A DNA stretch of 41,509 nt from a virus. Position numbers and translations under genes: made by a program. The notes under the pieces were generated by a model. The model was not told the origin of the DNA. It did no database searches and was given only the letters and a program-made list of their open reading frames with translations. The stretch is from IMG/VR virus record IMGVR_UViG_3300035493_000027. One strand, given 5' to 3'. Positions 2,975 to 30,864 of the stretch are shown in pieces; the first letter of the stretch is position 1, and each line of letters begins with the position of its first letter.

Positions 2975-2995
2975 AACTATCCACCATCGCATAGG
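2975..2995 (+). promoter_or_regulatory. M2 motif copy (AACTATCCACCATCGCATAGG), function unknown
   Basis: Member of a conserved intergenic motif family (see findings). Starts 3 nt after the capsid stop. Its 3' end forms the left arm of the terminator hairpin. Confidence 0.6.
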
Positions 2996-3025
2996 AGGGC
3001 CAGAAATGGCTCTCCTATTTTTTTC
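2991..3025 (+). terminator. Hairpin plus T-run terminator after the capsid gene (T-phi analogue)
   Basis: ATAGGAGGGCC-agaaat-GGCTCTCCTAT (11 bp, one G-U) followed by TTTTTTTCTT. Confidence 0.7.
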
Positions 3026-3038
3026 TTATGGGGGTTCC

Positions 3039-3614
3039 ATGATTTCTCCAACCACTGAGCTGGAAGCCATCAACACGATGCTCTCCACCATCGGTGAAGC
3101 CCCGATCAGTACCGTAGAGGACAGCGGCGTAATCGACGCAGTGATGGCCCGCCAGATCCTCCGTTCGGTTGACCGGGAAGTCCAGGCCAGGGGCTGGCAC
3201 TGGAACACCGATAAGGGCTACCCACTGACCCCGAACCAAGAGGGTGAGTGCGAGCTACCCATCGGGGTACTCCGCTGCGACACGGTCAGTCCTGACGACC
3301 AGATCGACGTGGTGGTTCGTGGCAAGCGACTCTACGACCGCCGCAACCACACCTACCAGATCAACAAGGCGGTGCGGGTGGACATGGTGACCCAGCTTCC
3401 CTTCGAGGAGCTGCCGGAAGCCGCCCGCCAGTACATCACCATCCGTGCCTCCCGCATCTTCCAAGAGCGCGTCCTGGGTTCAGTCGAGCTGTCCAGCTTC
3501 TCGACCGTCGACGAAACCCGCGCCCTGGTGACCCTCAAGGAGATGGAAGCAGACACGGCTGACTACAACATCCTGTCCGACAACTACTCGGTCTTCCGGG
3601 TACTGGATCGCTAA
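3039..3614 (+). CDS. Tail tubular protein A (T7 gp11-like)
   Basis: N-terminal ELEAINTMLSTIGEAPISTVED matches the gp11 [21 protein letters not shown] block. The longer ORF start at 3006 lies in the terminator loop and would translate the T-run, so ATG 3039 is preferred; 3006 remains possible. Confidence 0.85.
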   Translation: MISPTTELEAINTMLSTIGEAPISTVEDSGVIDAVMARQILRSVDREVQARGWHWNTDKGYPLTPNQEGECELPIGVLRCDTVSPDDQIDVVVRGKRLYDRRNHTYQINKAVRVDMVTQLPFEELPEAARQYITIRASRIFQERVLGSVELSSFSTVDETRALVTLKEMEADTADYNILSDNYSVFRVLDR

Positions 3615-3616
3615 CC

Positions 3617-6013
3617 ATGAGCCTGATCTCCACGACCATTCCCAACTTGGTGAATGGGGTGAGTCAGCAGCCCTATGCGATGCGTCTGGCCTCTCAATGC
3701 CAGGAGCAAATCAACGCCCACTCATCTGTGGTCGAAGGGCTGCGGAAGCGCCCCGGTACTCGCCATCTGGCCAAGCTGCCCAACATTACCGGCAGCCTGT
3801 TCATCCATACCATCAACCGCGACGCTGTCGAGCAGTACATCGTCATCATCCAGAACGGCAACCTTCGCGTGTTCGACCTGAACGGCGTGGAGAAGACCGT
3901 GACGTTCCCCAACGGCAAGACCTACCTGTCCTCGGCCAACCCGGCAGAGGAGTTCCGGTGCGTCACCGTTGCGGACTACACCTTCGTGCTGAACACCAAG
4001 GTCGCCACCAAGGAATCCACCACGCTGACCCCTAGCCGTCCCTACGAGGCTCTGGCCTGGGTCAAGCAAGGTGCCTACGGGGCCAAGTACATCCTGACGG
4101 TGGATGGTAAGACGGCCAGCTTCACGGCACCTGATGGTTCCCAGGCTGCGCACGTCAACCAAGTCACCACCGATCACATCGCCACCCAACTCACCAGCGG
4201 CATCAGCTCTGCGCTAGGCACAGGCTGGTCTGTTGTCCGGTATGGCTCGACGATCCACATCAAGCGTAACGATGGGGCTGCCTTCACGATCAGCTCCGAT
4301 GACTCCATCGGGGACAATGGCCTGGAGGTCATCGCCCAGAAGGCCCAGCGGTTCTCGAACCTCCCGGCCCGCGCAGTGGCTGGCTTCACGGTGGAGATCG
4401 TGGGCGACCAGTCGTCCTCGTTCGACAACTACTACGTCAGCTATGACGTGACCGGCACCGGCACCAGCCAGGGTGTCTGGAAGGAGACCCTCAAGGGAGG
4501 CGAGTCGGTCGGCCTGGACGCGGCCACCATGCCGCATGTGCTGATCCGCAACGCTGACGGGACGTTCACCTTCAAGCGCGCCGATTGGGAGAACCGGAAG
4601 GTAGGTGATCTGGACAGCAACCCGCTGCCGTCCTTCGTCGGGCGACCGCTCAACGACATCTTCTTCCACCGTAACCGCCTGGGGTTCATCAGCGACGAGA
4701 ACATCGTCTTCTCCCGCTCCGGTGAGTACTTCACGTTCTTCCGGGGCACGGCAACGTCGACCCTGGACACCGATCCCATCGACATCGGGGTGTCCCACGT
4801 CAAGGTCTCGATCCTGCGCCATGCGGTGCCGTTCAACGAGACCATGCTGCTGTTCAGCGACAAGACGCAGTTCCAGCTCGGGAACGCTGACGTGCTCACC
4901 CCAGACACGATCTCGGTGAATCAGACGACGGAGTACGAATGCTCTCTCCGTGCAAAACCTGTGGGGGCCGGGCGATACATCTACTTCGCGGTCAACCGGG
5001 GCACCTTCACGGGGCTGCGGGAGTACTTCGTGGATGGCGAGACCGAGTCCGAAGACGCGGCTGACATCACCGGCCATGTGCCGAAGTACATCCCAGGTGG
5101 GGTCTTCAAGATCGCTGCCAGCTCCAACGAGGATTGCGTGGCGGTGCTCTCGGATCAGCAGCGCAACTGCGCCTGGGTCTACAAGTACTACTGGAGCAAC
5201 GGCGAGAAGCTGCAGTCGTCTTGGTCGCGCTGGGAGTTCCACCCAAGCGATCAGATCCTCAACTGCGACTTCATCGAGTCCCGCCTGTACTTCGTCATCC
5301 GGCGAAGCGATGGGCTTCACCTTGAGGTCATCAACCTCGAACCTGGGGCAATCGAGCCGAACTGGAACATCGCCGTTCACCTCGACAGCATGGTTACCGA
5401 TCAACGCTGCACGGTGATCTTCGAGGAGAACGACCCGGCCCTGGAGGCGGACGACATCACCCAGGTCACGCTGCCCTACAAGCTACGCGCTGGTGAGACG
5501 GTTCAGTTGGTCACCGCGCCTGGAGGCTCCCGAGTTCCTGGGGTCGTGGTGAGCGACTACACCTTGAACAACAGCGGGACGTTCTCGGTGCTGAGCTTCA
5601 AGGGTGACTGGCGGGGCCAGCCGTTCTACATCGGCAAGCCGTACACCTTCCGCTATCGGTTCTCCACCCTGGTCATCAAGGAGGAGGCCATCGGCGGGGG
5701 CCAGTTGACCATCGGTGAGGGCCGCATCCAGCTCCGCAGAATGTCGGTGCTCTACAACAACGCCGGGTACTTCCGGGCCGAGGTGACGCCGTTCCGCAGG
5801 GATACCTACAGGTACATCTTCTCGGGGCGTGTGGTCGGCTCCGGTCGGAACATCCTGGGCCAAGTGGCTATCGAGGAAGGCAAGTTCAGCTTCCCCGTCA
5901 TGGCCAAGAACGATCAGGTCGAGATCGAACTGGTCAACGACAGCTACCTCCCATGCTTCTTCCTGAGCGCCGAATGGGAGGCGTTCTACGTCATTCGTTC
6001 AAGGAGACTGTGA
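3617..6013 (+). CDS. Tail tubular protein B (T7 gp12-like)
   Basis: 798 aa. N-terminal NLVNGVSQQPYAMRLASQ..EQINAHSSVVEGLRKRPGT is typical of gp12 family proteins. Position after gp11. Confidence 0.93.
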   Translation: MSLISTTIPNLVNGVSQQPYAMRLASQCQEQINAHSSVVEGLRKRPGTRHLAKLPNITGSLFIHTINRDAVEQYIVIIQNGNLRVFDLNGVEKTVTFPNGKTYLSSANPAEEFRCVTVADYTFVLNTKVATKESTTLTPSRPYEALAWVKQGAYGAKYILTVDGKTASFTAPDGSQAAHVNQVTTDHIATQLTSGISSALGTGWSVVRYGSTIHIKRNDGAAFTISSDDSIGDNGLEVIAQKAQRFSNLPARAVAGFTVEIVGDQSSSFDNYYVSYDVTGTGTSQGVWKETLKGGESVGLDAATMPHVLIRNADGTFTFKRADWENRKVGDLDSNPLPSFVGRPLNDIFFHRNRLGFISDENIVFSRSGEYFTFFRGTATSTLDTDPIDIGVSHVKVSILRHAVPFNETMLLFSDKTQFQLGNADVLTPDTISVNQTTEYECSLRAKPVGAGRYIYFAVNRGTFTGLREYFVDGETESEDAADITGHVPKYIPGGVFKIAASSNEDCVAVLSDQQRNCAWVYKYYWSNGEKLQSSWSRWEFHPSDQILNCDFIESRLYFVIRRSDGLHLEVINLEPGAIEPNWNIAVHLDSMVTDQRCTVIFEENDPALEADDITQVTLPYKLRAGETVQLVTAPGGSRVPGVVVSDYTLNNSGTFSVLSFKGDWRGQPFYIGKPYTFRYRFSTLVIKEEAIGGGQLTIGEGRIQLRRMSVLYNNAGYFRAEVTPFRRDTYRYIFSGRVVGSGRNILGQVAIEEGKFSFPVMAKNDQVEIELVNDSYLPCFFLSAEWEAFYVIRSRRL

Positions 6014-15263: not shown

Positions 15264-15284
15264 CCAAACCGCCTAGAAGGCCCG

Positions 15285-15346
15285 TAGAGCGCCTCCAGCA
15301 ATCCACCAGTGCATAGGTACAGGGTGGGTTCGCTGGCGGCGCTCTA
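15285..15346 (+). other. Long imperfect hairpin (about 22 bp in three helical segments) carrying an M2 copy
   Basis: TAGAGCGCC/GGCGCTCTA, CCAGC/GCTGG and AATCCACC/GGTGGGTT pair around the apical loop AGTGCATAGGTACAG. The ATG at 15346 lies in the 3' arm. Confidence 0.6.
15298..15317 (+). promoter_or_regulatory. M2 motif copy (GCAATCCACCAGTGCATAGG), function unknown
   Basis: Intergenic, between small and large terminase genes. Confidence 0.6.
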
Positions 15347-15372
15347 TGCGTTTCTGTGGAGCTTACAGCCCT

Positions 15373-18511: not shown

Positions 18512-18540
18512 TTGACGAACTATCCACCGTCGCATAAGAT
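18512..18540 (+). promoter_or_regulatory. Sigma70-type early promoter candidate (TTGACG-17 nt-TAAGAT)
   Basis: Best -35/-10 pair with correct spacing in the 664-bp non-coding region upstream of the first large early gene. The 17-nt spacer is an M2 copy. Confidence 0.55.
18518..18538 (+). promoter_or_regulatory. M2 motif copy (AACTATCCACCGTCGCATAAG), function unknown
   Basis: Fills the spacer of the sigma70-like promoter. Confidence 0.6.
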
Positions 18541-18720
18541 GCGCAGCCAAGAGGGAAGCGAAAGCCAACCTCACCGGCCACTAGGCCAACCGCTCTTTAA
18601 CAATCTGGATGGTGGTGCCCGTAGGTAACACCAACGGCAAGGATTGCCGGTAATCCCCAAGGATGGTGGATGCCTCAAGGCCCATTGACTGGGATCTTTC
18701 CCAGTATCAGTGCGCCTTGA

Positions 18721-18740
18721 AGTATCCACCCGCGAGATGG
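18721..18740 (+). promoter_or_regulatory. Degenerate M2-like copy (AGTATCCACCCGCGAGATGG)
   Basis: Shares TATCCACC-NN-CG with M2. Lies about 40 nt upstream of the ATG at 18778. Confidence 0.3.
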
Positions 18741-18777: not shown

Positions 18778-19437
18778 ATGGCTATTCGCATCAGTGTTAC
18801 TTCAAAACTGGATGGCATCCGCTCTTGGTCACTGGAGGCCATCGCTACCTGCCCCGGCTCTGTTGGGGCAGACGGTGAACTGGTTCCCGCTTGCCAAGGC
18901 TGCTATGCCACCACTGGCAACTATCGCTTCCCCAACGTCAAAGCGCCTCGTCAAGAGAACCGCCAAGACTGGAAGCGCGCCGAGTGGGTAGACGATATGG
19001 TCAAGGAACTGGACAGCGACCGCTATTTCCGGTGGTTCGACTCCGGTGACCTGTACGACCTGCGCCTCGCCCACAAGGTGTATCAGGTAATGGCTCGCAC
19101 TCCATGGTGCAAGCACTGGCTGCCGACCCGGATGCACAAGTTCGAGAAGTTCGCCCAGGTGCTGCGCATGATGGAGCAACTGCCGAATGTGGTAGTTCGC
19201 CGCTCAAGCGACAACGTCGACGGAACCTTCACCGATGGCGTTCATGGCTCGACCATTGTGCCCACTGCTTCCCAGGTTCCGGCTGGCGTCAAGATCTGCC
19301 AAGCCTACGAGAACGGCGGCAAGTGCTCCGGTTGCCGGGCTTGCTGGGATAAGTCGGTCTCGGTTGTCGGCTACGTCGCCCACGGCAAGAAGATGGCCTC
19401 AGTCCTCAAACGCGAAGGGCTGATTGCTGTCGGCTGA
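18778..19437 (+). CDS. Cys-rich early protein of unknown function (possibly GP88-like)
   Basis: 219 aa, RBS AAGGAG. Cys clusters C-x13-C-x2-C near the N-terminus and C-x8-C-x2-C-x2-C near the C-terminus suggest metal or Fe-S binding. The family assignment is from memory only. Confidence 0.85.
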   Translation: MAIRISVTSKLDGIRSWSLEAIATCPGSVGADGELVPACQGCYATTGNYRFPNVKAPRQENRQDWKRAEWVDDMVKELDSDRYFRWFDSGDLYDLRLAHKVYQVMARTPWCKHWLPTRMHKFEKFAQVLRMMEQLPNVVVRRSSDNVDGTFTDGVHGSTIVPTASQVPAGVKICQAYENGGKCSGCRACWDKSVSVVGYVAHGKKMASVLKREGLIAVG

Positions 19438-19459
19438 AACAATCCACCAACGCAACATT
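19438..19459 (+). promoter_or_regulatory. M2 motif copy (AACAATCCACCAACGCAACATT), weaker 3' half
   Basis: Begins immediately after the TGA of the preceding gene. Confidence 0.5.
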
Positions 19460-19536
19460 CGCGCTAGTGGCTTCATCCAAGGCCATCCACTGGGTGGCCT
19501 TCAGTGAACCCACTGAACCCCATGAGGGCAACAACC

Positions 19537-19704
19537 ATGAAAGCGTTCAAGCACTGGGGCCGCGAACTGGCCCGCGACCATCGCTACCGCAAAACCATGC
19601 GCCGCTCTAAGGAGTGGGGCGACTTCGACGACATGGGCAACGAGCGCATCGAGCGCGCCTACCACGCCCAGCGGCTGGCCAAGCGCGGCCTGTTGTTCTG
19701 CTGA
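19537..19704 (+). CDS. Hypothetical small basic protein
   Basis: ORF 19504..19704. ATG 19537 has GAGGG 8 nt upstream; the upstream candidate starts lack an RBS. Confidence 0.55.
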   Translation: MKAFKHWGRELARDHRYRKTMRRSKEWGDFDDMGNERIERAYHAQRLAKRGLLFC

Positions 19705-19712
19705 GGTGGCCC

Positions 19713-19895
19713 ATGGACGTATTCAATCACGTCGAGCGTGAGGTCGACCGCATCCTGGCGCCTCAAGCCGACTTCTACCCACTGCAGCCCGACTACCTGC
19801 AACGCCTTACCGAGGAAGCCTACAACCTGGGGGCGCTCTCCCAGGACGAGTACCGCTACCTCTGTCGGCGCATCGAGAAGGCGAGGACTCACTGA
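19713..19895 (+). CDS. Hypothetical small protein
   Basis: Internal ATG of ORF 19614..19895 preceded by GAGGTGG. 60 aa. Confidence 0.6.
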   Translation: MDVFNHVEREVDRILAPQADFYPLQPDYLQRLTEEAYNLGALSQDEYRYLCRRIEKARTH

Positions 19896-20047
19896 TGTCT
19901 GCCGCTCTCCAGCTCGACCAGCAGATGCCCCTTGAAGGCTGCTTGCTGACTGTTCTCGTGACTGCCCGGTGGTTCCACCGCCAGGGCATTCGCACTGGAC
20001 TCACCCGAGTTCGCAAAGGCCACTGGACGCTGACGCCCAGGGCTTGA
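19895..20047 (+). CDS. Hypothetical 50-aa protein (below the ORF-track cut-off)
   Basis: The ATG overlaps the preceding stop (TGATG), GAGGA 6 nt upstream. Translated manually: MSAALQLDQQMPLEGCLLTVLVTARWFHRQGIRTGLTRVRKGHWTLTPRA. Confidence 0.4.
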   Translation: MSAALQLDQQMPLEGCLLTVLVTARWFHRQGIRTGLTRVRKGHWTLTPRA

Positions 20048-21454: not shown

Positions 21455-21790
21455 ATGGCTCTGACAGCTCTCGCAGTGATCGAGGAAGTAATCAAGCGTT
21501 TCCGCGACTTCGATCAGGAGATGCAGATGCAGACTGCCCAGACATTCATCGCGGTCGCTATGCAGCCCGGCATCACCATGAAGGAGCTATCGGAGAAGGT
21601 TGGCATTTCTCAAGCGTCCTGCAGCCGCAACGTCTCGGCCCTGTCCCGAGTCCACCGGCTGAACAAGCCAGGAATGGATCTGGTTGTGGCTGCAGAAGAT
21701 CCGATGGAACGCCGCCGCAAGGTAGTCAAGCTGACCCCGAAAGGACAGCGCCTTGCCGAGTCACTGACCCAACTTATCGAGGAGAAGTAA
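21455..21790 (+). CDS. Winged-helix (MarR-like) transcriptional regulator; candidate lysogeny regulator
   Basis: HTH ITMKELSEKVGISQASCSRNVSAL followed by the wing DPMERRRKVVKLTPKGQRL. Strong RBS TAGGAGGT. Adjacent to the tRNA-Leu/integrase module. Confidence 0.8.
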   Translation: MALTALAVIEEVIKRFRDFDQEMQMQTAQTFIAVAMQPGITMKELSEKVGISQASCSRNVSALSRVHRLNKPGMDLVVAAEDPMERRRKVVKLTPKGQRLAESLTQLIEEK

Positions 21791-21797
21791 CAGAGGT

Positions 21798-21883
21798 TGG
21801 TGCTCGGAGCGGGACTCGAACCCGCAAGACCGTAGGTCGGGGCATTTTAAGTGCCCTGTGTCTACCAATTTCACCACCCGAGC
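21798..21883 (-). tRNA. tRNA-Leu (anticodon TAA), complete, antisense to all protein genes
   Basis: The reverse complement folds as a type II tRNA. Acceptor GCTCGGG/TCCGAGC, 3-bp D stem GTG/CAC, anticodon arm GGGCA-CTTAAAA-TGCCC, variable arm GACC-tac-GGTC, T arm GCGGG-TTCGAGT-CCCGC, ACCA end. Confidence 0.9.
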
Positions 21884-21895
21884 GAGGAGAGAACC

Positions 21896-22969
21896 ATGCC
21901 GGTAAAGCCAAGAGGTCGTGGCTTTGAGGCCACAGTCAACCACCAAGGAGGAAAGTACCGGAGGCAATTCGCAACCCAGGTCGAAGCCGAAGCCTGGGAG
22001 AAGGCAACCAAAGCCGCCCTCATGAGGGGCGAGATGGTAGCAGAAAGCAGCGGCTCAGCCAATGGAAACCCGAGCAGTCTCAAGGAGTTGGCCGAGCTGA
22101 CCTACAAACGATTCTGGCAGGGTCGCCCTGGAGGAGAGACCGCCCTGCGCAACGCCAAGCAATGCCTCGCCATCCTCGGTGAGGGCATGACCCCAGGCTC
22201 AGTTACGGAGCAGCGCATCGACGACATGGTGTTCGCATTCGAGCAGCAGGGTCTGTTCGACAGCACCATCAACCGGAAGCTCTCCGCTCTGTCCAAGATG
22301 CTGACCTTCGCCTATGAGCGAGGCTACATCCCACGCAAACCCAAGATCGAACGCAAGAAAGAACCCCAGAACCGCATCAGGTACTTCGACGAGGTCGAGG
22401 AGCAGATGCTGCTGGACACCTTCAACCACTTCGGGCTTCACGACATGGCCGACTTCTGCATCGTGGCCATCGACACCGGGATGCGGGTTGGTGAGATCAT
22501 GCGGATCGAGGATCGTGACGTAGCCAATGGGCTGGTCTCCGTGTGGCGCACGAAGAACGGCAAGGCCCGATCCATCCCGATGACCAAGCGCGTGGCTGAG
22601 GTACTGGAGCGCCGCTTTAAGGAGGAGCGTCGTCGGCTCAACACCATCGGCAACGTGAAGGCGTTCGACGGCTGGAACCACAGCAAGATCAGAACGCTGT
22701 GGGAGAAAGCCCGCCGCCACATGAAGATGATGGGCGACCCTCAGTTCGTCCCGCACGTCATGCGGCACACCTTCTGCTCCCGGCTGGTTCAGCGTGGAGT
22801 GGACATCGTGACGGTCTCGAAGCTGGCCGGTCACAGCTCCATCGTAGTCACCATGCGGTACGCTCACCTCGCTCCCGATAGTCTGGCCCATGCCATTCGG
22901 AAGCTGGAAGAACCCGCAAAAGATGTAAATCCCCAAGCTCGACACACGACACAAGTTGTGTCGCGGTAG
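21896..22969 (+). CDS. int: Tyrosine integrase (site-specific recombinase)
   Basis: TGMRVGEIMRI, HVMRHTFCSRLVQRGVDI, LAGHSSIVVTMRYAHL (R..HxxR..H..Y catalytic pattern). ATG 21896 with GAGGAG upstream is preferred because the longer ORF start at 21851 lies inside the tRNA. Confidence 0.93.
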   Translation: MPVKPRGRGFEATVNHQGGKYRRQFATQVEAEAWEKATKAALMRGEMVAESSGSANGNPSSLKELAELTYKRFWQGRPGGETALRNAKQCLAILGEGMTPGSVTEQRIDDMVFAFEQQGLFDSTINRKLSALSKMLTFAYERGYIPRKPKIERKKEPQNRIRYFDEVEEQMLLDTFNHFGLHDMADFCIVAIDTGMRVGEIMRIEDRDVANGLVSVWRTKNGKARSIPMTKRVAEVLERRFKEERRRLNTIGNVKAFDGWNHSKIRTLWEKARRHMKMMGDPQFVPHVMRHTFCSRLVQRGVDIVTVSKLAGHSSIVVTMRYAHLAPDSLAHAIRKLEEPAKDVNPQARHTTQVVSR

Positions 22970-22985
22970 TGTCGAGAGCCGCGAC

Positions 22986-23006
22986 CATTGCGATAGTGGA
23001 TTGATT
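22986..23006 (-). promoter_or_regulatory. M2 motif copy on the minus strand (CAATCCACTATCGCAATG core)
   Basis: The only inverted copy. Lies in the left arm of a bulged hairpin GTGGaTTGATT...AATCAACCAC. Confidence 0.45.
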
Positions 23007-23099
23007 GAACCCCAATAAAATCAACCACTTACGCCAGCAGTAGTCCTCCGCAACAGACTTAAAAGGTCTTGCATCCGACTACCCACTGGCACATTGAAT

Positions 23100-23126
23100 A
23101 ACCCGGCATCGTCCGGGTTTTCTTTT
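23100..23126 (+). terminator. Intrinsic terminator between integrase and RNAP gene
   Basis: AACCCGG-catcgt-CCGGGTT followed by TTCTTTT. Confidence 0.75.
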
Positions 23127-23132
23127 CCCATC

Positions 23133-23152
23133 AACTATCCACTGTCGCAACC
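23133..23152 (+). promoter_or_regulatory. M2 motif copy (AACTATCCACTGTCGCAACC), function unknown
   Basis: Between the terminator and the M1 promoter of the RNAP gene. Confidence 0.55.
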
Positions 23153-23220
23153 TTTGCAGACCGCTCGACACAAGACACGGGCGGTTTGTGTCGTCACGGC
23201 TCTCTGACGCCCTGCTTGGC

Positions 23221-23243
23221 AATTACCACACAGTCTTGGAGCA
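23221..23243 (+). promoter_or_regulatory. Phage RNAP promoter, M1 family (AATTACCACACAGTCTTGGAGCA), directly upstream of the RNAP gene
   Basis: Full M1 core. 58 nt upstream of the RNAP ATG. Confidence 0.85.
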
Positions 23244-23300: not shown

Positions 23301-25826
23301 ATGACTTCAATCATCACCAACCAACTGATTCAGGAAATTGAGAACAACCAAGAGTGGCAAGAGAAGTTCGACCGTCAGGTGGAACTTGAGGAGAAGATGA
23401 GAGGCATGGGCGTCGACCGTCACTGGTCGGAGGTAGCCAAGGCCAGGGAGCGTGGTCAGGAAACCAGCGTCCGCTCCGTCCGCCGACTGATGAACTCGTC
23501 AGTCGCCAAGATCGCAGAAGGCATCCGCCAGTTCATCGAGAGCTGCGAGGCTGGCAAGGCTGGCCGCAAGTACAGCGCATACCCACTGCTCAAGCAGATC
23601 GAACCCGAGGCCGCAGCCCTGATCACCGCACGGGTGGTACTGGATGGCGTGGCCAAGGGTGACCTGCTGGTCCCCCTGGCTCGCCGAGTTGCGTCCCTGA
23701 TCGAGGACGAGCTGGCCTTCCGCGAGTTCGCCAAGGCTGACCGCAAGACCTACGACTGGTTGGTCAAGCGCGAGAAGCGAGTCAACGGCAGCAGCTACCG
23801 CCGCCAGCGGCTGACCATGCTGCACAACATGGAGGCCCGCAACATCGCATGGCAGGAGTGGACTGCCCGCGAGTCCCTGCTGGTCGGCTCCAAGCTGATC
23901 GAGATCATGACCGAGACCACCGGCCTGATTCAGAAAGTCACCCGCACCGTGGACGTGAAGCGCCAGGAGGTGGCAATCGAGGCCACCCCTGAGACCATCG
24001 CCTGGATCAACGAGGAGAACAACCGCTGCGAAGCTCTCTCCCCGGTGTACCTGCCCACCATCATCCCGCCTCGCCCCTGGACTTCACCGTTCGAGGGCGG
24101 CTACTGGACTCCGCGTGTCCGCCGACTGGCCCTGGTCAAGACCCACTCGAAGGGGTACTTGGAGGAGCTGGCCGAGCACGACATGCCGGAAGTCTACGAT
24201 GCGATCAACGCCATGCAGCACACCGCCTGGGCCATCAATGGCCGGGTGCTGGAGGTGGTTCGCAACCTGTGGAACAACGGTGCCACCCTGGGTGGTATCC
24301 CTGCGGCTGACGATCAGCCGATCCCGCCGAAGCCCCTGTTCCTTGAGCAGGAGCTGCCCCGCGAGGAGTGGTCGGAGGATCAGGTGCGTCAGTTCAAGGA
24401 GTGGAAGCGCGAGGCAACCGACACCTATGCGTCCAACGCGAAGCTGAAGTCCCTGCGTCTGCAGTTCGCCAAGGTATTGATGATTGCCGAGATGTTCGAG
24501 CACGAGGAGGAAATCTACTTCCCGCACCAGTTCGACTTCCGTGGCCGGGCCTACGCTGTGCCGATGTTCCTGAATCCCCAGGGCAGCGACATCGCCAAGG
24601 GTCTGCTGGAGTTCGCCAATGCGGTAGCGATCAACGACGAGGAAGGTGCCAACTGGCTGGCCATTCACGGTGCCAACAGCTACGGCTACGACAAGGTCTC
24701 CCTGGCTGAGCGTGTGCGCTGGGTGCAGGAGAACGAGGCCGAGATCCTGGCCTGTGCTGCTGACCCGTACAGCCACAGCATGTGGGCCAAGGCCGACAAG
24801 CCCTTCCAGTTCCTGGCGTTCTGCATCGAGTGGGCTGAGTTCAAACGCGAAGGCTACGGCTACCTGTCGACCTTGCCCATCGCAATGGACGGTAGCTGCA
24901 ACGGGCTGCAGAACTTCTCGGCGATGCTGCGTGATGCCATCGGCGGCGAGGCCGTGAACCTCGTGCCCCAGGAGAAACCTGCGGACATCTACCAGAAGGT
25001 GGCCGACCGCGTGGTGCTGCGTGTCGAGGCTGACGCTGTTGGCCAGGACGAGGTGTTGGCGAAGCTGGCCCAGGGCTGGCTCAAGCACGGCATCAACCGC
25101 AAGGTGTGCAAGCGCCCGGTGATGACCCTGGCCTATGGTGCCAAGGAGTTCGGCTTCAAGACCCAGGTGTTCGAGGACACCGTCATGCCGTACAAGCTGA
25201 AGGCTGGCAAGGAGTTCCCCTGGGAAGGCTCCGGCTGGGCTGCCGCTGAGTACATGGGCAAGCTGATCTGGGAGTGCGTCGGTGAGGTGGTGGTCGCTGC
25301 TCGTCAGGCTATGGACTGGCTGCAGAAGGCTGCGCGTCTGGCCGCGAAGGAAGGACTGCCGGTACGTTGGAACACCCCGGACAATCTGGTCGTGCTCCAG
25401 GCGTACCCGAAGATGCTGACCGAGCGCATCGACCTGACCTTCGGGGGCAGCCGTCACCTGCTCACCGTGGCAGTCAGCCCGACCACCGAGCTGGATCGCA
25501 ACAAGCAAGCCAACGGGATCAGCCCGAACTGGGTTCACTCGATGGACGCCAGCCACATGCGGGCCACTGTCCGCCGCTGCTGGAACGAGGGGATGCGCAG
25601 CTTCTCCCTGATCCACGACAGCTACGGCACCCACGCCGGGAACGCCTGGGCACTCGCCAAGTTCCTGCGTGAGGAGTTCGTCACCATGTACGAGGAGGAT
25701 GTGCTGGAAGACTTCAAGCGAGAACTGGAGCGGCAGCTCCCCGAAGGATCAGAGCTTGATCCTCTACCCCCGAAAGGCAACTTGGACTTGGCTTTGGTGC
25801 TGGAGTCCGCGTTTTTCTTTGCCTGA
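23301..25826 (+). CDS. T7-like single-subunit DNA-directed RNA polymerase
   Basis: FDFRGRAYAVPMFLNPQGSDIAKGLL, DGSCNGLQNFSAMLRD, LIHDSYGTH and a C-terminal FFFA match T7 gene 1 protein motifs. Confidence 0.98.
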   Translation: MTSIITNQLIQEIENNQEWQEKFDRQVELEEKMRGMGVDRHWSEVAKARERGQETSVRSVRRLMNSSVAKIAEGIRQFIESCEAGKAGRKYSAYPLLKQIEPEAAALITARVVLDGVAKGDLLVPLARRVASLIEDELAFREFAKADRKTYDWLVKREKRVNGSSYRRQRLTMLHNMEARNIAWQEWTARESLLVGSKLIEIMTETTGLIQKVTRTVDVKRQEVAIEATPETIAWINEENNRCEALSPVYLPTIIPPRPWTSPFEGGYWTPRVRRLALVKTHSKGYLEELAEHDMPEVYDAINAMQHTAWAINGRVLEVVRNLWNNGATLGGIPAADDQPIPPKPLFLEQELPREEWSEDQVRQFKEWKREATDTYASNAKLKSLRLQFAKVLMIAEMFEHEEEIYFPHQFDFRGRAYAVPMFLNPQGSDIAKGLLEFANAVAINDEEGANWLAIHGANSYGYDKVSLAERVRWVQENEAEILACAADPYSHSMWAKADKPFQFLAFCIEWAEFKREGYGYLSTLPIAMDGSCNGLQNFSAMLRDAIGGEAVNLVPQEKPADIYQKVADRVVLRVEADAVGQDEVLAKLAQGWLKHGINRKVCKRPVMTLAYGAKEFGFKTQVFEDTVMPYKLKAGKEFPWEGSGWAAAEYMGKLIWECVGEVVVAARQAMDWLQKAARLAAKEGLPVRWNTPDNLVVLQAYPKMLTERIDLTFGGSRHLLTVAVSPTTELDRNKQANGISPNWVHSMDASHMRATVRRCWNEGMRSFSLIHDSYGTHAGNAWALAKFLREEFVTMYEEDVLEDFKRELERQLPEGSELDPLPPKGNLDLALVLESAFFFA

Positions 25827-25847
25827 CGCTATCCACTAGTGCATAGA
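25827..25847 (+). promoter_or_regulatory. M2 motif copy (CGCTATCCACTAGTGCATAGA), most palindromic copy
   Basis: Begins 1 nt after the RNAP stop. CTATCCACTAGTGCATAG is a palindrome except for two positions. Confidence 0.6.
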
Positions 25848-25861: not shown

Positions 25862-25884
25862 AATTACCACACAGGTATGGAAGA
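25862..25884 (+). promoter_or_regulatory. Phage RNAP promoter, M1 family, copy 1 of tandem triplet
   Basis: AATTACCACACAGGTATGGAAGA. Confidence 0.85.
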
Positions 25885-25907
25885 CCGCGCTGGCTCTACC
25901 TCCAGGC

Positions 25908-25930
25908 GATTACCACACAGGTATGGAAGA
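25908..25930 (+). promoter_or_regulatory. Phage RNAP promoter, M1 family, copy 2 of tandem triplet
   Basis: GATTACCACACAGGTATGGAAGA, 46 nt after copy 1. Confidence 0.85.
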
Positions 25931-25954
25931 CCGCACTGGCTCCACCCCCGAGGC

Positions 25955-25977
25955 GATTACCACACAGGTATGGAAGA
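25955..25977 (+). promoter_or_regulatory. Phage RNAP promoter, M1 family, copy 3 of tandem triplet
   Basis: GATTACCACACAGGTATGGAAGA, 47 nt after copy 2. Confidence 0.85.
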
Positions 25978-26009
25978 CCGCCCACCCACCAGATCACGAG
26001 GAGAACTTC

Positions 26010-26135
26010 ATGAGCGCATTGCAACAAGCCATCGAGTACTGGACCGAGGACATGCCGATCCCCGTCGATCTGGCAATGGAGCTGGCCAGCGAGGGCTACG
26101 ACGTGGAAGCCCTTGAGGACTTCTATCGCCAGTAA
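26010..26135 (+). CDS. Hypothetical 41-aa acidic protein
   Basis: Internal ATG of ORF 25839..26135 with GAGGAG upstream. The upstream part of the ORF merely reads through the promoter repeats. Confidence 0.55.
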   Translation: MSALQQAIEYWTEDMPIPVDLAMELASEGYDVEALEDFYRQ

Positions 26136-26154
26136 CTATCCACCAACGCATTGA
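26134..26154 (+). promoter_or_regulatory. M2 motif copy (AACTATCCACCAACGCATTGA), function unknown
   Basis: Overlaps the TAA stop of the 41-aa ORF. Confidence 0.55.
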
Positions 26155-27818: not shown

Positions 27819-27890
27819 CCCGCCCCCGGTATGCCCCGCGCTGCCGGGGGTTTCTGTTTCAAGACCCACGACAACTGTGAGGAGAACCCC

Positions 27891-28133
27891 ATGACCCACA
27901 CCCAAATCCGTGCTCTGTCCCCGCAATGCGAGCTGATCCTCAACCACCTGCGTGCTGGCCACACGATCACCCAACGCTCGGCCCTGATGGACTTCGGCGT
28001 GATGGCACTGCCGCGCCGCATCGCTGACCTCAAGGAGCGTGGCTACGACATCGTGTCCGTGATGGAGCACAACAAGCTCACCGGCCAGCGCTATGCCCGC
28101 TACTCCCTGAAAGCCCAGAAGCGCCGCGCATAA
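27891..28133 (+). CDS. Helix-turn-helix DNA-binding protein (HTH_39-like)
   Basis: Internal ATG with GAGGAG upstream. ILNHLRAGHTITQRSALMDFGVMALPRRIADLKERGYDI fits the winged-helix pattern recalled for this family. Confidence 0.7.
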   Translation: MTHTQIRALSPQCELILNHLRAGHTITQRSALMDFGVMALPRRIADLKERGYDIVSVMEHNKLTGQRYARYSLKAQKRRA

Positions 28134-28388: not shown

Positions 28389-28419
28389 AGCCCGCCTCTG
28401 AGCGGGCTTCGTCTTTTCT
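28389..28419 (+). terminator. Hairpin plus interrupted T-run terminator
   Basis: AGCCCGC-ctctga-GCGGGCT followed by TCGTCTTTTCT. Preceded by a second hairpin CTGACCCG/CGGGTCAG (28346-28370). Confidence 0.6.
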
Positions 28420-28431
28420 GGAGGACAGAAC

Positions 28432-29193
28432 ATGAGCAAGCAACTGATCACCCGCGAGTACCAAGGTAACGTCTTCACCTTCCGTGAGGACGGCTACTTC
28501 AACATGACCGACGCTGCAAAGAAGTTCGGGAAAGATGTCTTCGAGTTCCTACGACTGCCGAGCACTGTGGAATATGTGGAAGCACTAACCGGGATTATCC
28601 CGGTATCTAATCTAACTGAGGCCAAACGCGGTGTAGGCACCTGGGCACACCCCAAGCTGGCCGTCTTCTTCGCCCGCTGGCTGGACGTGAAGTTCGCAGT
28701 CTTCTGCGACATGGTCATCGACGACATCCTCAACAAGAAGGCCGAGCTGACCATCACCCAGCCCGCCGAGTCGATGGCAATGAAGGTGCCCCAGTCGTTC
28801 CCCGAAGCCCTGCGTCTTGCTGCCGAGCTGGCAGAGAAGAACGAGCAGCTCGCCCTGGAGAACAAGGAGATGGCACCGAAGGCTGTCGTCTTCGACAACT
28901 GCATGGCGCTGCGTCAGGAATCCCTGGCCACCTTCGTGCGTACCCTGGAAGGCGTCAACACGATGGCCATCAAGGGTGATCTGGCTGACATGGGCTACCT
29001 GTACCGCACCGTCGGCGCTGGCAAGTACCGCGTGTACGCCAAGTACCGGAACGTGTTGTTCACCGAGAAGCTGATCGCCCATCCGACCCGCCCGGTCTAC
29101 GAAATCCTACCGACTCCCGAGGGCAAGAAGCTGATCGTCCAGCTCTACCGTGACGGCAAGCTGACCATGAAGAAGGCATACGCAGCAGCATGA
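28432..29193 (+). CDS. KilA-N domain / ANT-type antirepressor-like protein
   Basis: N-terminal FNMTDAAKKFGKDVFEFLRL...WAHPKLAVFFARWL (KilA-N pattern). C-terminal half resembles phage antirepressor C-terminal domains. Confidence 0.8.
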   Translation: MSKQLITREYQGNVFTFREDGYFNMTDAAKKFGKDVFEFLRLPSTVEYVEALTGIIPVSNLTEAKRGVGTWAHPKLAVFFARWLDVKFAVFCDMVIDDILNKKAELTITQPAESMAMKVPQSFPEALRLAAELAEKNEQLALENKEMAPKAVVFDNCMALRQESLATFVRTLEGVNTMAIKGDLADMGYLYRTVGAGKYRVYAKYRNVLFTEKLIAHPTRPVYEILPTPEGKKLIVQLYRDGKLTMKKAYAAA

Positions 29194-30845
29194 GCGAGTG
29201 GGTGCAAACCCACTTGCCTTGTCCCTGTGGCCAATCCTCTGACGCCTACTCGATCAACGACAAAGGTTGGGGGAAGTGCTTCTCGTGCGGGAAGAACTTC
29301 AACGAGGAGGCGTCGGACTCAACACCCAGAGGTAAACAGCAAGTGGCAGCAGTGAAAGAACTGGTGCCCTTCGGAGAGTACCGGGCACTAAGCAAACGCA
29401 AGATCACAGAGGAGACCTGCAAGAAGTTCGGCTACTTCGTCGGTGAGTTCAAAGAGCAGACCGTCCAAGTGGCCCCGTACCGCAACACCGAAGGCGAGGT
29501 CATCGCCCAGAAGGTGCGGTTCGCTGACAAGTCCTTCACCACCAGGGGCAAGTTCAAAGGCGTGGCCCTGTTCGGCCAGCACCTGTGGGGCGAAGGCGGC
29601 AAGAAGCTGGTCATCACCGAGGGCGAGATCGACTGCCTCACCGTGAGCCAGCTCCAGGGCAACAAATGGCCCGTGGTGTCCATCCCCAACGGCGCTCAAG
29701 GCGCAGCCAACTCCATCAAGGAGAACCTCGAATGGGTGCTCACCTTCGAGGAGGTCATCCTGATGTTCGATCAGGACGAGCCGGGCCGCGAAGCTGCCAT
29801 CAAGGTGGCCGAGCTGCTGCCCCCAGGCAAGGCCAAGATCGCCAGCCTCCCGCTCAAAGACCCGAACGACATGCTCGTAGCTGGCCGTGGCCAGGAGGTG
29901 ATCCAGGCAATCTGGAACGCGAAGGAGTACCGGCCTGACGGGCTGGTCTCCATCGACGACATCCTCGACGAGGTCGAGAAGCCCATCGAATGGGGCAAGC
30001 CCTGGTGCTTCGAGTCCCTCACCAAGCTGACTTACGGTCGCCGCGAGGGTGAGCTGTACGCCATCGGCGCTGGCACTGGCGTGGGCAAGACCGACTTCAT
30101 GACCCAGCAGATCGCCTTCGACGTGGTCGAGCTGGGCGAGCATGTCGGCGTCATCTTCCTTGAACAGAAGCCGGTCGAGACCGCCAAGCGCGTGGCCGGG
30201 AAGATCGCCGGTCGGCGCTTCCATGTGCCGGATGCTGGCTGGACTCCCGAGGAATTGAAGACAGCCGTGGCCAACCTCAAAGGTAAGGTCACCTTCTACG
30301 ACTCCTGGGGCGAGACCGAGTGGGATGCGGTCAAGTCCAAGATCCGCTTCATGGTGGTCAGCCTGGGCATCAGGCACATCTACCTCGACCATCTCACGGC
30401 GATGGCCGACACCTCGAACGAGAAGGAATCCATCGAGCAACTGATGAAGGAGATGGCGGGCTTGGCCAACGAGCTGGGCTGCATCATCCACTTCGTCAGC
30501 CACCTGTCCACCCCGGAGGGCAAGCCTCACGAGGAAGGTGGCCGCGTGATGATCCGCCACTTCAAGGGCAGCCGGGCCATCGGCTTCTGGTCGTACTTCA
30601 TGTTCGGCCTGGAGCGGAACCAGCAAGCCGAGGATGAGGAGGAACGGCAGACCACCACCTTCCGCATCCTCAAAGACCGCTACACCGGCCAGTCCACCGG
30701 CCACACCTTGAGCCTCGGCTACGACCAAGAGACTGGTCGCCTGTTCGAGATCGCCCAGACCGCCGACGACTACGGCTTCGACGACACCCCGGCCACCACC
30801 CAGGAGGGCATCGACCTGCCTTGGGAGGAAAAGCCGGATTTCTAA
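29190..30845 (+). CDS. DNA primase/helicase (T7 gp4-like)
   Basis: Zn finger CPCG..x..CFSCGK, TOPRIM ITEGEIDCLT and MFDQDEPG, Walker A GAGTGVGKT, Walker B IYLDHL. Confidence 0.97.
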   Translation: MSEWVQTHLPCPCGQSSDAYSINDKGWGKCFSCGKNFNEEASDSTPRGKQQVAAVKELVPFGEYRALSKRKITEETCKKFGYFVGEFKEQTVQVAPYRNTEGEVIAQKVRFADKSFTTRGKFKGVALFGQHLWGEGGKKLVITEGEIDCLTVSQLQGNKWPVVSIPNGAQGAANSIKENLEWVLTFEEVILMFDQDEPGREAAIKVAELLPPGKAKIASLPLKDPNDMLVAGRGQEVIQAIWNAKEYRPDGLVSIDDILDEVEKPIEWGKPWCFESLTKLTYGRREGELYAIGAGTGVGKTDFMTQQIAFDVVELGEHVGVIFLEQKPVETAKRVAGKIAGRRFHVPDAGWTPEELKTAVANLKGKVTFYDSWGETEWDAVKSKIRFMVVSLGIRHIYLDHLTAMADTSNEKESIEQLMKEMAGLANELGCIIHFVSHLSTPEGKPHEEGGRVMIRHFKGSRAIGFWSYFMFGLERNQQAEDEEERQTTTFRILKDRYTGQSTGHTLSLGYDQETGRLFEIAQTADDYGFDDTPATTQEGIDLPWEEKPDF

Positions 30846-30864
30846 CTATCCACTAGCGCATAGG
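30844..30864 (+). promoter_or_regulatory. M2 motif copy (AACTATCCACTAGCGCATAGG), function unknown
   Basis: Overlaps the TAA stop of the primase-helicase gene, 20 nt upstream of the DNA polymerase ATG. Confidence 0.6.

What the first reader, a model, noticed from the sequence alone, without database searches (positions are those of the whole stretch)
2975..30864. Unexplained conserved intergenic motif family M2 (AACTATCCACYRNYGCATAGG)
There are eight clear + strand copies: 2975, 15298, 18518, 19438, 23133, 25827, 26134 and 30844. One inverted copy lies at 22986-23006, and degenerate copies at 12418 and 18721. All are intergenic and most begin at or within 3 nt of a stop codon; in two cases the TAA stop is part of TAACTATCCAC. 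They sit after the capsid, gp16-like, small terminase, first early gene, RNAP, 41-aa gene and primase-helicase genes, and before the early block and the RNAP gene. This distribution is reminiscent of where T7 places its RNase III processing sites (R0.3, R0.5, R1, R1.1, R4.7, R18.5). However, no common hairpin accompanies the copies, so the primary sequence appears to be what is recognised. The motif is pseudo-palindromic (half-sites CTATCCAC and GTGCATAG, best at 25827), which would suit a dimeric DNA-binding protein such as the MarR-like regulator at 21455. Its 3' end (CATAGG) also looks like a T7-type initiation region, yet it is about 2 nt longer than the M1 promoter between shared landmarks. 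None of promoter, operator, processing site or sequence-specific pause signal fully explains it.
Basis: partly seen in the sequence, partly recalled or inferred. Interest (0 to 1): 0.85.

Follow-up and report, generated by a model that had tools for sequence, protein, structure and literature searches.

The report
Dispersed repressor operators, temperate T7-like phage
The repeated motif is real and is most likely the DNA binding site of the phage's own MarR-type lysogeny repressor, sitting inside the early host-type promoter, around the integration site next to the RNA polymerase gene, and in many short gaps between genes, which would let a T7-like prophage keep itself silent.

Summary
The window is a circularly permuted genome of a temperate T7-like Pseudomonas phage, about 92-97% identical in DNA to LUZ100. 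M2 is real. A weight matrix finds 13 sites against 0 expected by chance. Eleven of them lie in the 7.4% of the window that is non-coding, and 12 of 13 share one orientation.

M2 is better described as a 16-22 bp dyad, (AC)CTATCCAC-NN-GTG(C/G)ATAG(GT), with a stronger left half. One copy forms the spacer and -10 of the early sigma-70 promoter (TTGACG-17-TAAGAT). In LUZ100 the two mapped host promoters, P1 and P2, have the same layout. Three copies flank the attP core and terminator T4 upstream of the RNA polymerase gene.

LUZ100 cappable-seq shows no transcript start or end at the other copies. Only one copy sits in a stable hairpin. This argues against a promoter, terminator or RNase III role.

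The motif persists at the same places in relatives whose MarR is only 47-68% identical. Its half-site changes (TATCCG, ATACAC), and the TATCCG change goes with a different MarR recognition helix. The predicted protein has a MarR fold.

Best reading: an operator family for the MarR-like repressor, dispersed like mycobacteriophage stoperators. No binding has been shown. Confidence is about 0.6.

The parts
2975..2995 (+). M2 site. It starts 2 nt after the major capsid stop codon, and its 3' end runs into the stem of the capsid terminator (LUZ100 T16).
   Evidence: 0 mismatches; 26.4 bits; T16 sequence.
15297..15317 (+). M2 site between the small and large terminase genes. Nearly symmetric. It sits in the upper part of a 66-nt hairpin (15283-15348).
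   Evidence: 27.5 bits on +, 25.1 on -. Fold -52.2 kcal/mol, z = -6.6. The same position is occupied in L157-L166.
18512..18540 (+). Early sigma-70-type promoter, TTGACG-17-TAAGAT. M2 (18518-18538) forms its spacer and overlaps its -10.
   Evidence: Promoter scan. LUZ100 P1 and P2, with mapped starts, have the same layout.
18720..18740 (+). Weak M2 site after the first early terminator and before the early gene at 18778.
   Evidence: 16.7 bits. The orthologue L160:13724 is a perfect palindrome.
19438..19458 (+). M2 site starting directly after the stop codon of the early gene 18778-19437.
   Evidence: 23.4 bits; conserved in L157, L159 and L160.
22985..23005 (-). Inverted M2 site about 15 nt after the integrase stop codon, on the int side of the attP core.
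   Evidence: 24.7 bits on -. A - strand copy sits just after int in LUZ100, L160, L162 and L013 as well.
23056..23064 (+). attP crossover core, GACTTAAAA, matching the anticodon loop of the host tRNA-Leu(TAA).
   Evidence: Homology to the two ends of an integrated prophage breaks here.
23077..23097 (+). Weak M2 site 12 nt right of the attP core, just before terminator T4.
   Evidence: 15.3 bits. The LUZ100 copy at 3937 is better, with 2 mismatches.
23100..23129 (+). Intrinsic terminator (LUZ100 T4), flanked by two M2 sites.
   Evidence: Terminator scan; mapped 3' end in LUZ100.
23133..23153 (+). M2 site between T4 and the phage promoter phi1 (23222-23241), upstream of the RNA polymerase gene.
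   Evidence: 24.6 bits; phi1.
25827..25847 (+). M2 site starting directly after the RNA polymerase stop codon, 16 nt before the first of three tandem phage promoters.
   Evidence: 27.5 bits. It is the only conserved island after the stop codon in 10 phages.
26134..26154 (+). M2 site. The upstream gene's TAA stop is part of it. It lies before the SSB gene.
   Evidence: 27.9 bits; conserved in L005-L013.
30844..30864 (+). M2 site. The primase-helicase TAA stop is part of it. It lies before the DNA polymerase gene.
   Evidence: 0 mismatches; 31.8 bits; footprint alignment.
32470..32490 (+). Near-palindromic M2-like site inside the DNA polymerase coding sequence.
   Evidence: 27.0 bits on +, 24.8 on -. 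Kept in L005-L015, but coding constraint cannot be separated out.
33910..33930 (+). M2-like site at the overlap of the thyX stop and the next gene's start.
   Evidence: 24.8 bits; present in LUZ100 at 14657.
21455..21790 (+). MarR-like winged-helix regulator, the proposed reader of M2. It sits upstream of the integrase gene (21851-22969).
   Evidence: Pfam HTH_24 and MarR_2. AF2 pLDDT 92. Best Foldseek match is the MepR-DNA complex, TM 0.75. Found with M2 in every relative where both regions are covered.

Best explanation
M2 is the operator family of the phage's MarR-like lysogeny repressor (gene 21455-21790). A repressor dimer would bind the 16-22 bp dyad (AC)CTATCCAC-NN-GTG(C/G)ATAG(GT).

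Shown:
- The motif is non-random, dyad-symmetric and almost entirely intergenic.
- One copy is the spacer and -10 of the early sigma-70 promoter.
- Three copies bracket the attP core and terminator T4 upstream of the RNA polymerase gene.
- The layout is conserved in relatives that carry the same MarR family.

Inferred:
- In a lysogen the repressor occludes the early promoter.
- At the left prophage end it works with T4 to stop read-through from the disrupted host tRNA-Leu gene into the phage RNA polymerase gene. That gene would otherwise amplify itself from phi1.
- At the dispersed intergenic copies it acts as an orientation-biased roadblock to host RNA polymerase, like the stoperators of cluster A mycobacteriophages.
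- During lytic growth the sites are unoccupied or harmless.
For: 1. Non-random: 6 strict matches against 0 expected. Thirteen matrix sites score 15-32 bits against 12 or less for background. Eleven of 13 lie in the 7.4% of the window that is non-coding, P = 2.6e-11.

2. Dyad symmetry: in the family matrix, positions 4-10 (TATCCAC) mirror positions 13-19 (GTGSATA). Some copies are perfect palindromes, such as L160:13724 and L014:199.

3. Operator position: window 18512-18540 reads TTGACG-17-TAAGAT with M2 as spacer and -10. LUZ100 P1 and P2, whose starts were mapped by cappable-seq, are identical in layout. The same is seen in L162 (three promoters) and L163.

4. Cluster in the int-RNAP gap: three copies in the window, four in L013 and four in L238, interleaved with terminators. 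Prophage ends place attP in this gap and show the host tRNA-Leu 5' half reading toward the RNAP gene.

5. Conservation: M2 is the only conserved island after the RNAP stop codon and before the DNAP gene, in phages with RNAP identity down to about 50%. It persists where the phage-RNAP promoter motif M1 is not found, in L012, L014 and L015.

6. Link to MarR: every locus that covers both an M2-bearing region and the early region has the MarR-int module. The recognition helix ISQ(A/S)SCSRNV goes with TATCCAC. The helix (L/T)(A/V)QST(T/C)SRNVSL goes with TATCCG, in L168, L172, L173 and L237. L239 and L007 have M2-type sites but no HTH_39 gene in the covered part.

7. Distant relative: L017 (MarR 40% identical) has a different palindrome, TTGGTAC-N6-GTACCAA, three times in the equivalent int-RNAP gap.

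8. Fold: MarR family, with the MepR-DNA complex as best match.
Against: - No binding assay exists for this protein or any relative, and the link to MarR is correlative.
- The half-site/helix covariation rests on essentially one lineage (L168/L172/L173/L237), so it counts as one evolutionary event.
- The HTH_39 protein (27831-28133) co-occurs with M2 in most relatives.
- Most copies are asymmetric, with a degenerate right half, and 12 of 13 share one orientation. A symmetric dimer does not predict this.
- The MarR promoter region (LUZ100 P3) has no M2, so there is no sign of autoregulation.
- A subset of copies carries a short extra inverted repeat after the CCAC box (CGCAT-AAG-ATGCG, GCAA-CCT-TTGC, CGTAA-CCT-TTACG), which the model does not explain.
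- LUZ100 lysogens could not be obtained, so repression has never been observed.
- Roadblock activity at the dispersed sites is pure inference.
Confidence: 0.6

Rival explanations
1. M2 is an operator-type site read by a different phage DNA-binding protein. Candidates are the HTH_39 winged-helix protein (27831-28133), the KilA-N/ANT-like protein (28432-29193), or an unrecognised early protein.
For: HTH_39 is conserved alongside M2 in most relatives (L005-L015, L035, L238).
Against: L239 and L007/L032 have M2-type sites but no HTH_39 gene in the covered region. Lytic-looking relatives with HTH_39 but no MarR hit in the fetched part (L004, L018-L020) have no M2. HTH_39 lies in the middle region near phage promoters, so it would be made too late to control early promoters in a lysogen.
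Confidence: 0.12
2. M2 is a head-to-head pair of host DnaA boxes. Each 9-mer, CTATCCACY and CTAT(G/C)CACY, resembles TTATNCACA. This would couple early transcription to host DnaA.
For: Each half matches the DnaA box at 7 of 9 positions. The one core position that varies between halves and between phage lineages (C/G/A) is the N of TTATNCACA. The box definition is from my own knowledge, not a tool result.
Against: Positions 1 and 9 of the box are systematically wrong: C instead of T, and Y instead of A. The TATCCG variant appears in one phage lineage together with a changed MarR recognition helix, whereas DnaA boxes are, to my knowledge, nearly universal. The T7-like relatives fetched without a MarR hit have no M2.
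Confidence: 0.06
3. M2 marks RNA processing sites, either RNase III sites as in T7 or RNase E sites, and acts on the + strand transcript.
For: There is a strand bias (12 of 13 on +) and the sites lie after genes, as with T7 R sites. The copy before the large terminase gene lies in a 66-nt hairpin with z = -6.6, in the place of T7 R18.5.
Against: Eight of the nine regions folded have ordinary folding energy, and the capsid-site signal comes from terminator T16 rather than from M2; four weaker or coding sites were not folded. The copy in the promoter spacer lies upstream of the transcription start, so it is not in RNA. One conserved copy is on the non-transcribed strand. Several copies in relatives are perfect DNA palindromes. 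In LUZ100 no 3' ends map at the M2 copies without terminators.
Confidence: 0.05
4. M2 is a second promoter class or a sequence-specific pause/termination signal for the phage or host RNA polymerase.
For: The 3' end, CATAGG, resembles a T7-type initiation region. The right half resembles a -10 element (TAAGAT, TAGGTA, TAGAAT).
Against: LUZ100 cappable-seq found 11 starts. None is at an M2 copy except P1 and P2, where a -35 TTGACA is present. 3' ends near M2 occur only at the hairpin terminators T4 and T16. The other copies lack a -35. M2 is kept in relatives where the M1 phage promoter motif is not found.
Confidence: 0.04
5. M2 is mainly a recombination or module-boundary sequence, or an integrase arm-type site, with no role in transcription.
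For: Several differences between the window and LUZ100 begin or end next to M2 copies: the HNH insertion before terL is flanked by M2-like copies, and the early-gene replacement at 18782-19937 ends with the 19438 copy. Three copies flank the attP core.
Against: A boundary sequence does not need dyad symmetry or a fixed register inside sigma-70 promoters. Arm-type sites would not be spread over 30 kb.
Confidence: 0.05

Closest known systems
Stoperators of cluster A mycobacteriophages (L5 gp71, TipsytheTRex repressor)
   Same: One repressor site type occurs both inside the early lytic promoter and at many short intergenic gaps across the genome. Its orientation correlates with the direction of transcription, and it is proposed to block both initiation and elongation (PMC9283540). 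M2 shows the same distribution: a promoter copy, dispersed intergenic copies often touching stop codons, and 12 of 13 in one orientation.
   Different: Stoperators are asymmetric 13-mers bound by a monomer with two DNA-binding domains. M2 is a 16-22 bp dyad and the candidate reader has a MarR fold. The phage is a T7-like podovirus with its own RNA polymerase, and there are about 13 sites rather than more than 20. No elongation block has been shown here.
MarR-family repressor operators (MepR, MexR, MarR, OhrR)
   Same: A dimeric winged-helix protein binds a (pseudo)palindrome of about 16-20 bp that overlaps the -35/-10 of the controlled promoter. The predicted structure of the window protein matches the MepR-DNA complex best.
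   Different: Cellular MarR proteins usually control one or two promoters and respond to small ligands. Here the sites are spread over a whole phage genome. The protein is short (111 aa), and its sequence match to Pfam MarR_2 is below the curated cut-off.
Proposed MarR-based lysogeny switch of temperate T7-like phages (Boeckman et al. 2022, as summarised in the LUZ100 paper)
   Same: A MarR-like regulator next to the integrase is proposed to bind sites flanking the promoter upstream of the RNA polymerase gene. The M2 copies at 22985-23153 fit this. L017 shows a different palindrome in the same gap.
   Different: The LUZ100 paper names no operator sequence and even considers the sites might be defective. 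Copies in the early sigma-70 promoters and the genome-wide dispersal are not mentioned there. I could not read the 2022 paper, so it may already contain part of this.
T7 RNase III processing sites (R0.3 to R18.5)
   Same: They lie between genes, after the RNAP, capsid-region and packaging genes.
   Different: T7 sites are long irregular hairpins with little shared primary sequence (my own knowledge). M2 is a shared primary sequence without a hairpin, except at 15297.

Membership tests
Operator of a dimeric (MarR-type) phage repressor | Dyad-symmetric site of about 16-22 bp | tested here: met
   In the family matrix TATCCAC mirrors GTGSATA around a 2-bp centre. Relatives contain perfect palindromes.
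Operator of a dimeric (MarR-type) phage repressor | Overlaps the core elements of the promoter it controls | tested here: met
   Window 18512-18540 reads TTGACG-17-TAAGAT with M2 as spacer and -10. LUZ100 P1 and P2, with mapped starts, have the same layout. So do promoter-like sites in L162 and L163.
Operator of a dimeric (MarR-type) phage repressor | Co-occurs and co-varies with the repressor gene | tested here: inconclusive
   Co-occurrence holds in all loci that cover both regions. The change from TATCCAC to TATCCG goes with a changed recognition helix, but in only one lineage.
Operator of a dimeric (MarR-type) phage repressor | The candidate reader has a MarR / winged-helix fold | tested here: met
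   AF2 pLDDT 92. Foldseek matches MepR-DNA (TM 0.75), MexR, MarR and PcaV. Pfam HTH_24 is above its cut-off; MarR_2 is below.
Operator of a dimeric (MarR-type) phage repressor | Sequence-specific binding by the protein, and repression | not testable with these tools
   Needs EMSA or footprinting, reporter assays, and ChIP in lysogens.
Stoperators (cluster A mycobacteriophages) | Many copies in short intergenic gaps plus a copy in the early promoter | tested here: met
   13 sites, 11 of them non-coding, one in the early promoter.
Stoperators (cluster A mycobacteriophages) | Orientation tied to the direction of transcription | tested here: met
   12 of 13 are on +, p = 0.003. The single - copy lies after int, next to the prophage right end, in five phages. 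Four sites are nearly symmetric, so for them orientation means little.
Stoperators (cluster A mycobacteriophages) | Asymmetric 13-bp site bound by a monomeric HTH plus Stoperator-domain repressor | tested here: not met
   M2 is a dyad and the candidate reader has a MarR fold. The definition is from PMC9283540.
Stoperators (cluster A mycobacteriophages) | Blocks transcription elongation when occupied | not testable with these tools
   No lysogen transcript data exist. LUZ100 lytic data show no 3' ends at the dispersed sites, as expected if the repressor is absent or inactive.
T7-type RNase III site | Extended irregular hairpin spanning the site | tested here: not met
   Of nine regions folded, only 15297 has z = -6.6. 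The z of -2.8 at 2975 is due to terminator T16. The remaining regions range from -2.6 to +0.9.
Phage (T7-type) RNA polymerase promoter | Transcription starts at the site, and it matches the phage promoter consensus | tested here: not met
   No LUZ100 start maps to M2 outside P1 and P2. The true phage promoter is M1, ATTACCACACAGKNNTGGAR, with nine copies.
Sigma-70 promoter | -35 and -10 hexamers at 16-18 bp spacing | tested here: not met
   Met only at 18512-18540. The other copies lack a -35.
DnaA box | 9-mer TTATNCACA | tested here: inconclusive
   Each half matches 7 of 9 positions, with positions 1 and 9 consistently off. Host DnaA binding was not tested.

The most novel reading that the evidence does not exclude
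Temperate T7-like phages silence the whole prophage with a dispersed, orientation-biased set of MarR-dimer binding sites. These would act both as operators in the early host promoters and as elongation roadblocks. The roadblock targets would include read-through from the tRNA-Leu gene that the phage disrupts on integration. This would be a convergent, structurally unrelated counterpart of the mycobacteriophage stoperator system, in a phage family long regarded as strictly lytic.
Probability: 0.35. Interest if true: 0.65.

Novelty: new variant of a known kind. Interest (0 to 1): 0.55.

Why it matters
How T7-like phages with integrases keep a self-amplifying RNA polymerase silent in a lysogen is an open question. 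The LUZ100 study proposed MarR-based control but could not name the binding sites, and it wondered whether they were defective.

M2 supplies a concrete and testable candidate operator. It shows that the early sigma-70 promoters, and not only the RNAP promoter region, would be under the same control. It also suggests genome-wide roadblocks.

If confirmed, it would give a second, independent example of stoperator-like silencing. It would also give a compact repressor/operator pair for Pseudomonas synthetic biology, and a sequence signature for recognising temperate members of the Autographiviridae, which matters when choosing phages for therapy.

Tried and rejected
It was uninformative.
- The genome-contig scan with the RNAP protein gave only 3 loci, none close.
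- The Boeckman 2022 paper is not held in the library, so I could not check what operator it proposed.
- Plain k-mer counting in distant loci (L167, L036, L184 and others) mostly found terminal-repeat arrays or phage promoters, not operators. A short-palindrome search downstream of int in five distant loci was also unclear, because most contigs end at int.
- Small-hairpin idea: some copies have a 4-6 bp inverted repeat after the CCAC box with apparently compensatory changes. It is missing from at least five window copies and from several orthologues, so I did not build a model on it.
- 12418 as a degenerate copy is rejected (below 7 bits). The good sites in L162 and L163 that I first took for its orthologues actually lie about 3 kb upstream of the tail-fibre gene, apparently inside the preceding internal-virion-protein gene.
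- Rfam finds nothing but the two tRNAs.
- Sigma-54 and ECF promoter readings were considered by eye and dropped for lack of the defining spacing.

Full report
IDENTITY OF THE WINDOW

The window is a circularly permuted genome of a T7-like phage. Its first 127 bases repeat at 41209 and 41383. The RNA polymerase gene (23301-25826) is 97% identical in DNA to that of Pseudomonas phage LUZ100. Most of the genome aligns to LUZ100 at 92-97%.

LUZ100 is a T7-like phage with temperate features. Its transcript starts and ends were mapped by ONT-cappable-seq (PMC10134795), and its GenBank record carries those features.

CHECKING THE OBSERVATION

The stated pattern has six + strand matches within three mismatches and none in 100 shuffles. 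A weight matrix built from the family and its relatives separates 13 window sites (15-32 bits) from background (12 bits or less).

- The 13 sites are 2975, 15297, 18518, 18720 (weak), 19438, 22985-23005 (- strand), 23077 (weak), 23133, 25827, 26134, 30844, 32470 and 33910.
- Eleven of 13 lie in the 7.4% of the window that is non-coding (P = 2.6e-11).
- Twelve of 13 are in the + orientation (p = 0.003).

The conserved columns form a dyad. TATCCAC at positions 4-10 mirrors GTG(C/G)ATA at positions 13-19. The left half is better kept, and the symmetry extends weakly to ACC...GGT.

WHAT THE SITES ARE NOT

In LUZ100 the same sites are present at 374, 575, 775, 3865(-), 3937, 3993, 6687, 6963, 11567, 13193, 14657, 22148, 34509 and 34998.

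Cappable-seq found transcript starts only at 374 and 575. These are the host-type promoters P1 and P2, where TTGACA lies immediately upstream and M2 forms the 17-bp spacer and the -10 TAAGAT. It found 3' ends only where a hairpin terminator adjoins M2, at T4 and T16. The copies after the RNAP gene, before SSB, before DNAP and before terL have neither.

Of nine M2 regions folded as RNA, only the one before terL has unusual stability (-52.2 kcal/mol, z = -6.6). The signal at 2975 comes from terminator T16. Rfam finds only two tRNAs.

So promoter, terminator and RNase III readings fail for the family as a whole.

WHAT THE ANATOMY SAYS

Early promoter. The window copy at 18518 lies in a sigma-70-type promoter, TTGACG-17-TAAGAT. 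A protein bound there would occlude RNA polymerase.

Region between int and the RNAP gene. Three copies sit between the integrase stop (22969) and phi1 (23222): one inverted at 22985-23005, one weak at 23077, and one at 23133. Terminator T4 (23100-23129) lies between the last two.

Position of attP. Comparing the window with the two ends of an integrated relative in an isolate genome places the attP core at about 23056-23064, GACTTAAAA. This is the anticodon loop of a host tRNA-Leu(TAA). In the lysogen the 5' half of that tRNA gene therefore reads straight toward the RNAP gene, through weak M2, T4, M2 and phi1. The inverted copy ends up just inside the other prophage end, facing outward.

A self-amplifying RNAP gene placed downstream of a tRNA gene fragment would need exactly this kind of protection. 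That last step is inference.

COMPARATIVE EVIDENCE

M2 recurs at the same places in relatives fetched through the RNAP, MarR and terL proteins:
- directly after the RNAP stop codon;
- before SSB;
- before DNAP;
- about 50 nt before terL;
- in two or three early sigma-70 promoters;
- after early genes;
- in three or four copies in the int-RNAP gap, interleaved with terminators.

In alignments of the RNAP-downstream and DNAP-upstream gaps, M2 is the conserved island while its flanks diverge.

The motif is kept in L012, L014 and L015 (RNAP 74-79% identical), where the M1 promoter motif is not found.

All loci that cover both regions carry a MarR-like gene next to the integrase. Its recognition helix is almost invariant, ISQ(A/S)SCSRNV, across proteins down to about 45% identity. 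This matches the wide conservation of TATCCAC.

Three further observations bear on the link:
- L168, L172, L173 and L237 form one lineage with the helix (L/T)(A/V)QST(T/C)SRNVSL, and their half-site is TATCCG.
- An AT-rich relative, L239 (MarR 47% identical), has ATACAC-NN-GTGTAT at the equivalent places.
- The distant L017 (MarR 40% identical) has a quite different palindrome, TTGGTAC-N6-GTACCAA, three times and only in its int-RNAP gap.

The predicted structure of the window protein (pLDDT 92) matches MarR-family structures, with the MepR-DNA complex at TM 0.75 as the best match.

MOST LIKELY MECHANISM

M2 is the operator family of the MarR-like repressor.

Shown: non-randomness, dyad symmetry, promoter overlap, the cluster at attP and the RNAP gene, conservation and co-occurrence with the MarR family, and the MarR fold.

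Inferred: that this protein binds the sites, that it shuts the early promoter and guards the RNAP gene in lysogens, and that the dispersed copies act as roadblocks.

The distribution is the hallmark of the stoperators of cluster A mycobacteriophages: one copy in the early promoter, many copies in short intergenic gaps, and one orientation (PMC9283540). M2 is not a member of that family. Stoperators are asymmetric 13-mers read by a monomer with two DNA-binding domains, whereas M2 is a dyad and its candidate reader is a MarR-fold protein. 'Works like' is plausible; 'is a' fails.

WHAT REMAINS UNEXPLAINED

- The right half is systematically weaker and resembles a -10 element. Orientation is biased although a dimer should not care.
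- Some copies carry an extra short inverted repeat after the CCAC box, with apparently compensatory changes.
- Two sites lie in coding sequence.
- The MarR promoter region has no M2.

RIVALS

- Another phage winged-helix protein, HTH_39, is the main rival. It is weakened by L239 and L007, which have M2-type sites but no HTH_39 in the covered region.
- Each half-site resembles a DnaA box at 7 of 9 positions, and the variable core position coincides with the N of TTATNCACA. However, positions 1 and 9 are consistently wrong, and the lineage-specific TATCCG variant argues for a phage-encoded reader.
- A role as a module boundary or integrase arm site cannot be excluded for some copies, but it does not explain the dyad or the promoter register.

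NOVELTY

The LUZ100 paper proposes MarR binding near phi1 but names no sequence and never mentions an operator or palindrome. No later paper in the library does so either. The 2022 paper that first proposed MarR control could not be read.

Operator sites for a phage repressor are a known kind of element. New here would be a genome-wide, orientation-biased set of them in a T7-like phage, including sites in the early host promoters and at the prophage ends.

Noticed in passing
window 15283-15348: A 66-nt hairpin (-52.2 kcal/mol, z = -6.6) spans the gap between the small and large terminase genes and buries the terL start codon. Its outer stem is kept by different sequences in L166, L168, L169 and L170-L173, even where the M2 copy inside it is absent. 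It could be an RNase III-type site (the place of T7 R18.5) or a translational control of terL.
   Followed up: partly
window 23056-23064 and 21798-21883 (- strand); L011:1400-1500; L160:18290-18370: The attP core, GACTTAAAA, equals the anticodon loop of a host tRNA-Leu(TAA). The phage side does not rebuild the tRNA 5' half, so integration appears to disrupt the host gene. The phage carries its own tRNA-Leu(taa), which may compensate.
   Followed up: partly
window 22935-22985 and 23160-23195: Related words (CGACACAAG, TTGTGTCG, CGGTAGTGTCG) form inverted repeats on both sides of the attP core, overlapping the 3' end of int and preceding phi1. They may be integrase arm-type sites.
   Followed up: no
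window 1-127, 41153-41509: A 174-nt unit is repeated in tandem after the portal gene (41153-41326 and 41327-41500). The first 127 bases of the window repeat at 41209 and 41383. This is either an assembly overlap of k-mer size or a true tandem repeat. The 41154-41315 and 41328-41489 ORFs are copies of each other.
   Followed up: no
window 25863-25996: Three tandem copies of the phage promoter with 46-47 nt spacing lie upstream of the SSB gene. LUZ100 has two (phi2, phi3).
   Followed up: no
L007 / L032 (IMGVR_UViG_3300014012_000008) 4169-4504: A 93% identical copy of the MarR-like gene sits in the middle region downstream of the RNAP gene, roughly where other relatives have the HTH_39 gene. No HTH_39 gene is found in that contig part.
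   Followed up: no
L001 (LUZ100) 34509-35019 versus window 15297-15403: LUZ100 has an HNH endonuclease gene inserted between the M2 copy and terL, and a second M2-like palindrome (GGGTATCCACTGATGGATAGC) sits at the HNH/terL junction. The window lacks the insertion. Other window/LUZ100 differences in the early region also end at M2 copies.
   Followed up: partly
window 18531-18543, 23146-23157; L001 6699-6713; L035 6765-6777: In a subset of M2 copies the right half is part of a short inverted repeat whose arms differ between copies but stay complementary (CGCAT-AAG-ATGCG, GCAA-CCT-TTGC, GCGCA-TAGGT-TGCGC, CGTAA-CCT-TTACG). It is not present in all copies and is unexplained.
   Followed up: partly
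L162:4482, L163:4051: A good M2 site is conserved as an island about 3 kb upstream of the tail-fibre gene, apparently within the otherwise divergent coding sequence of the preceding internal-virion-protein gene. The window has no counterpart.
   Followed up: no
window 28432-29193: A KilA-N protein with an ANT (antirepressor)-like C-terminal part lies in the middle region, where the annotated promoters are phage-RNAP promoters. The gene is replaced by a different allele in LUZ100. It might counteract the repressor once the lytic programme starts.
   Followed up: no
window 35521-37284: A full-length 587-aa ORF is present at the position of the LUZ100 gene annotated as ribonucleotide reductase. 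In LUZ100 only a 65-aa remnant is annotated there, and about 2.8 kb is missing (alignment gap 35629-38392).
   Followed up: no
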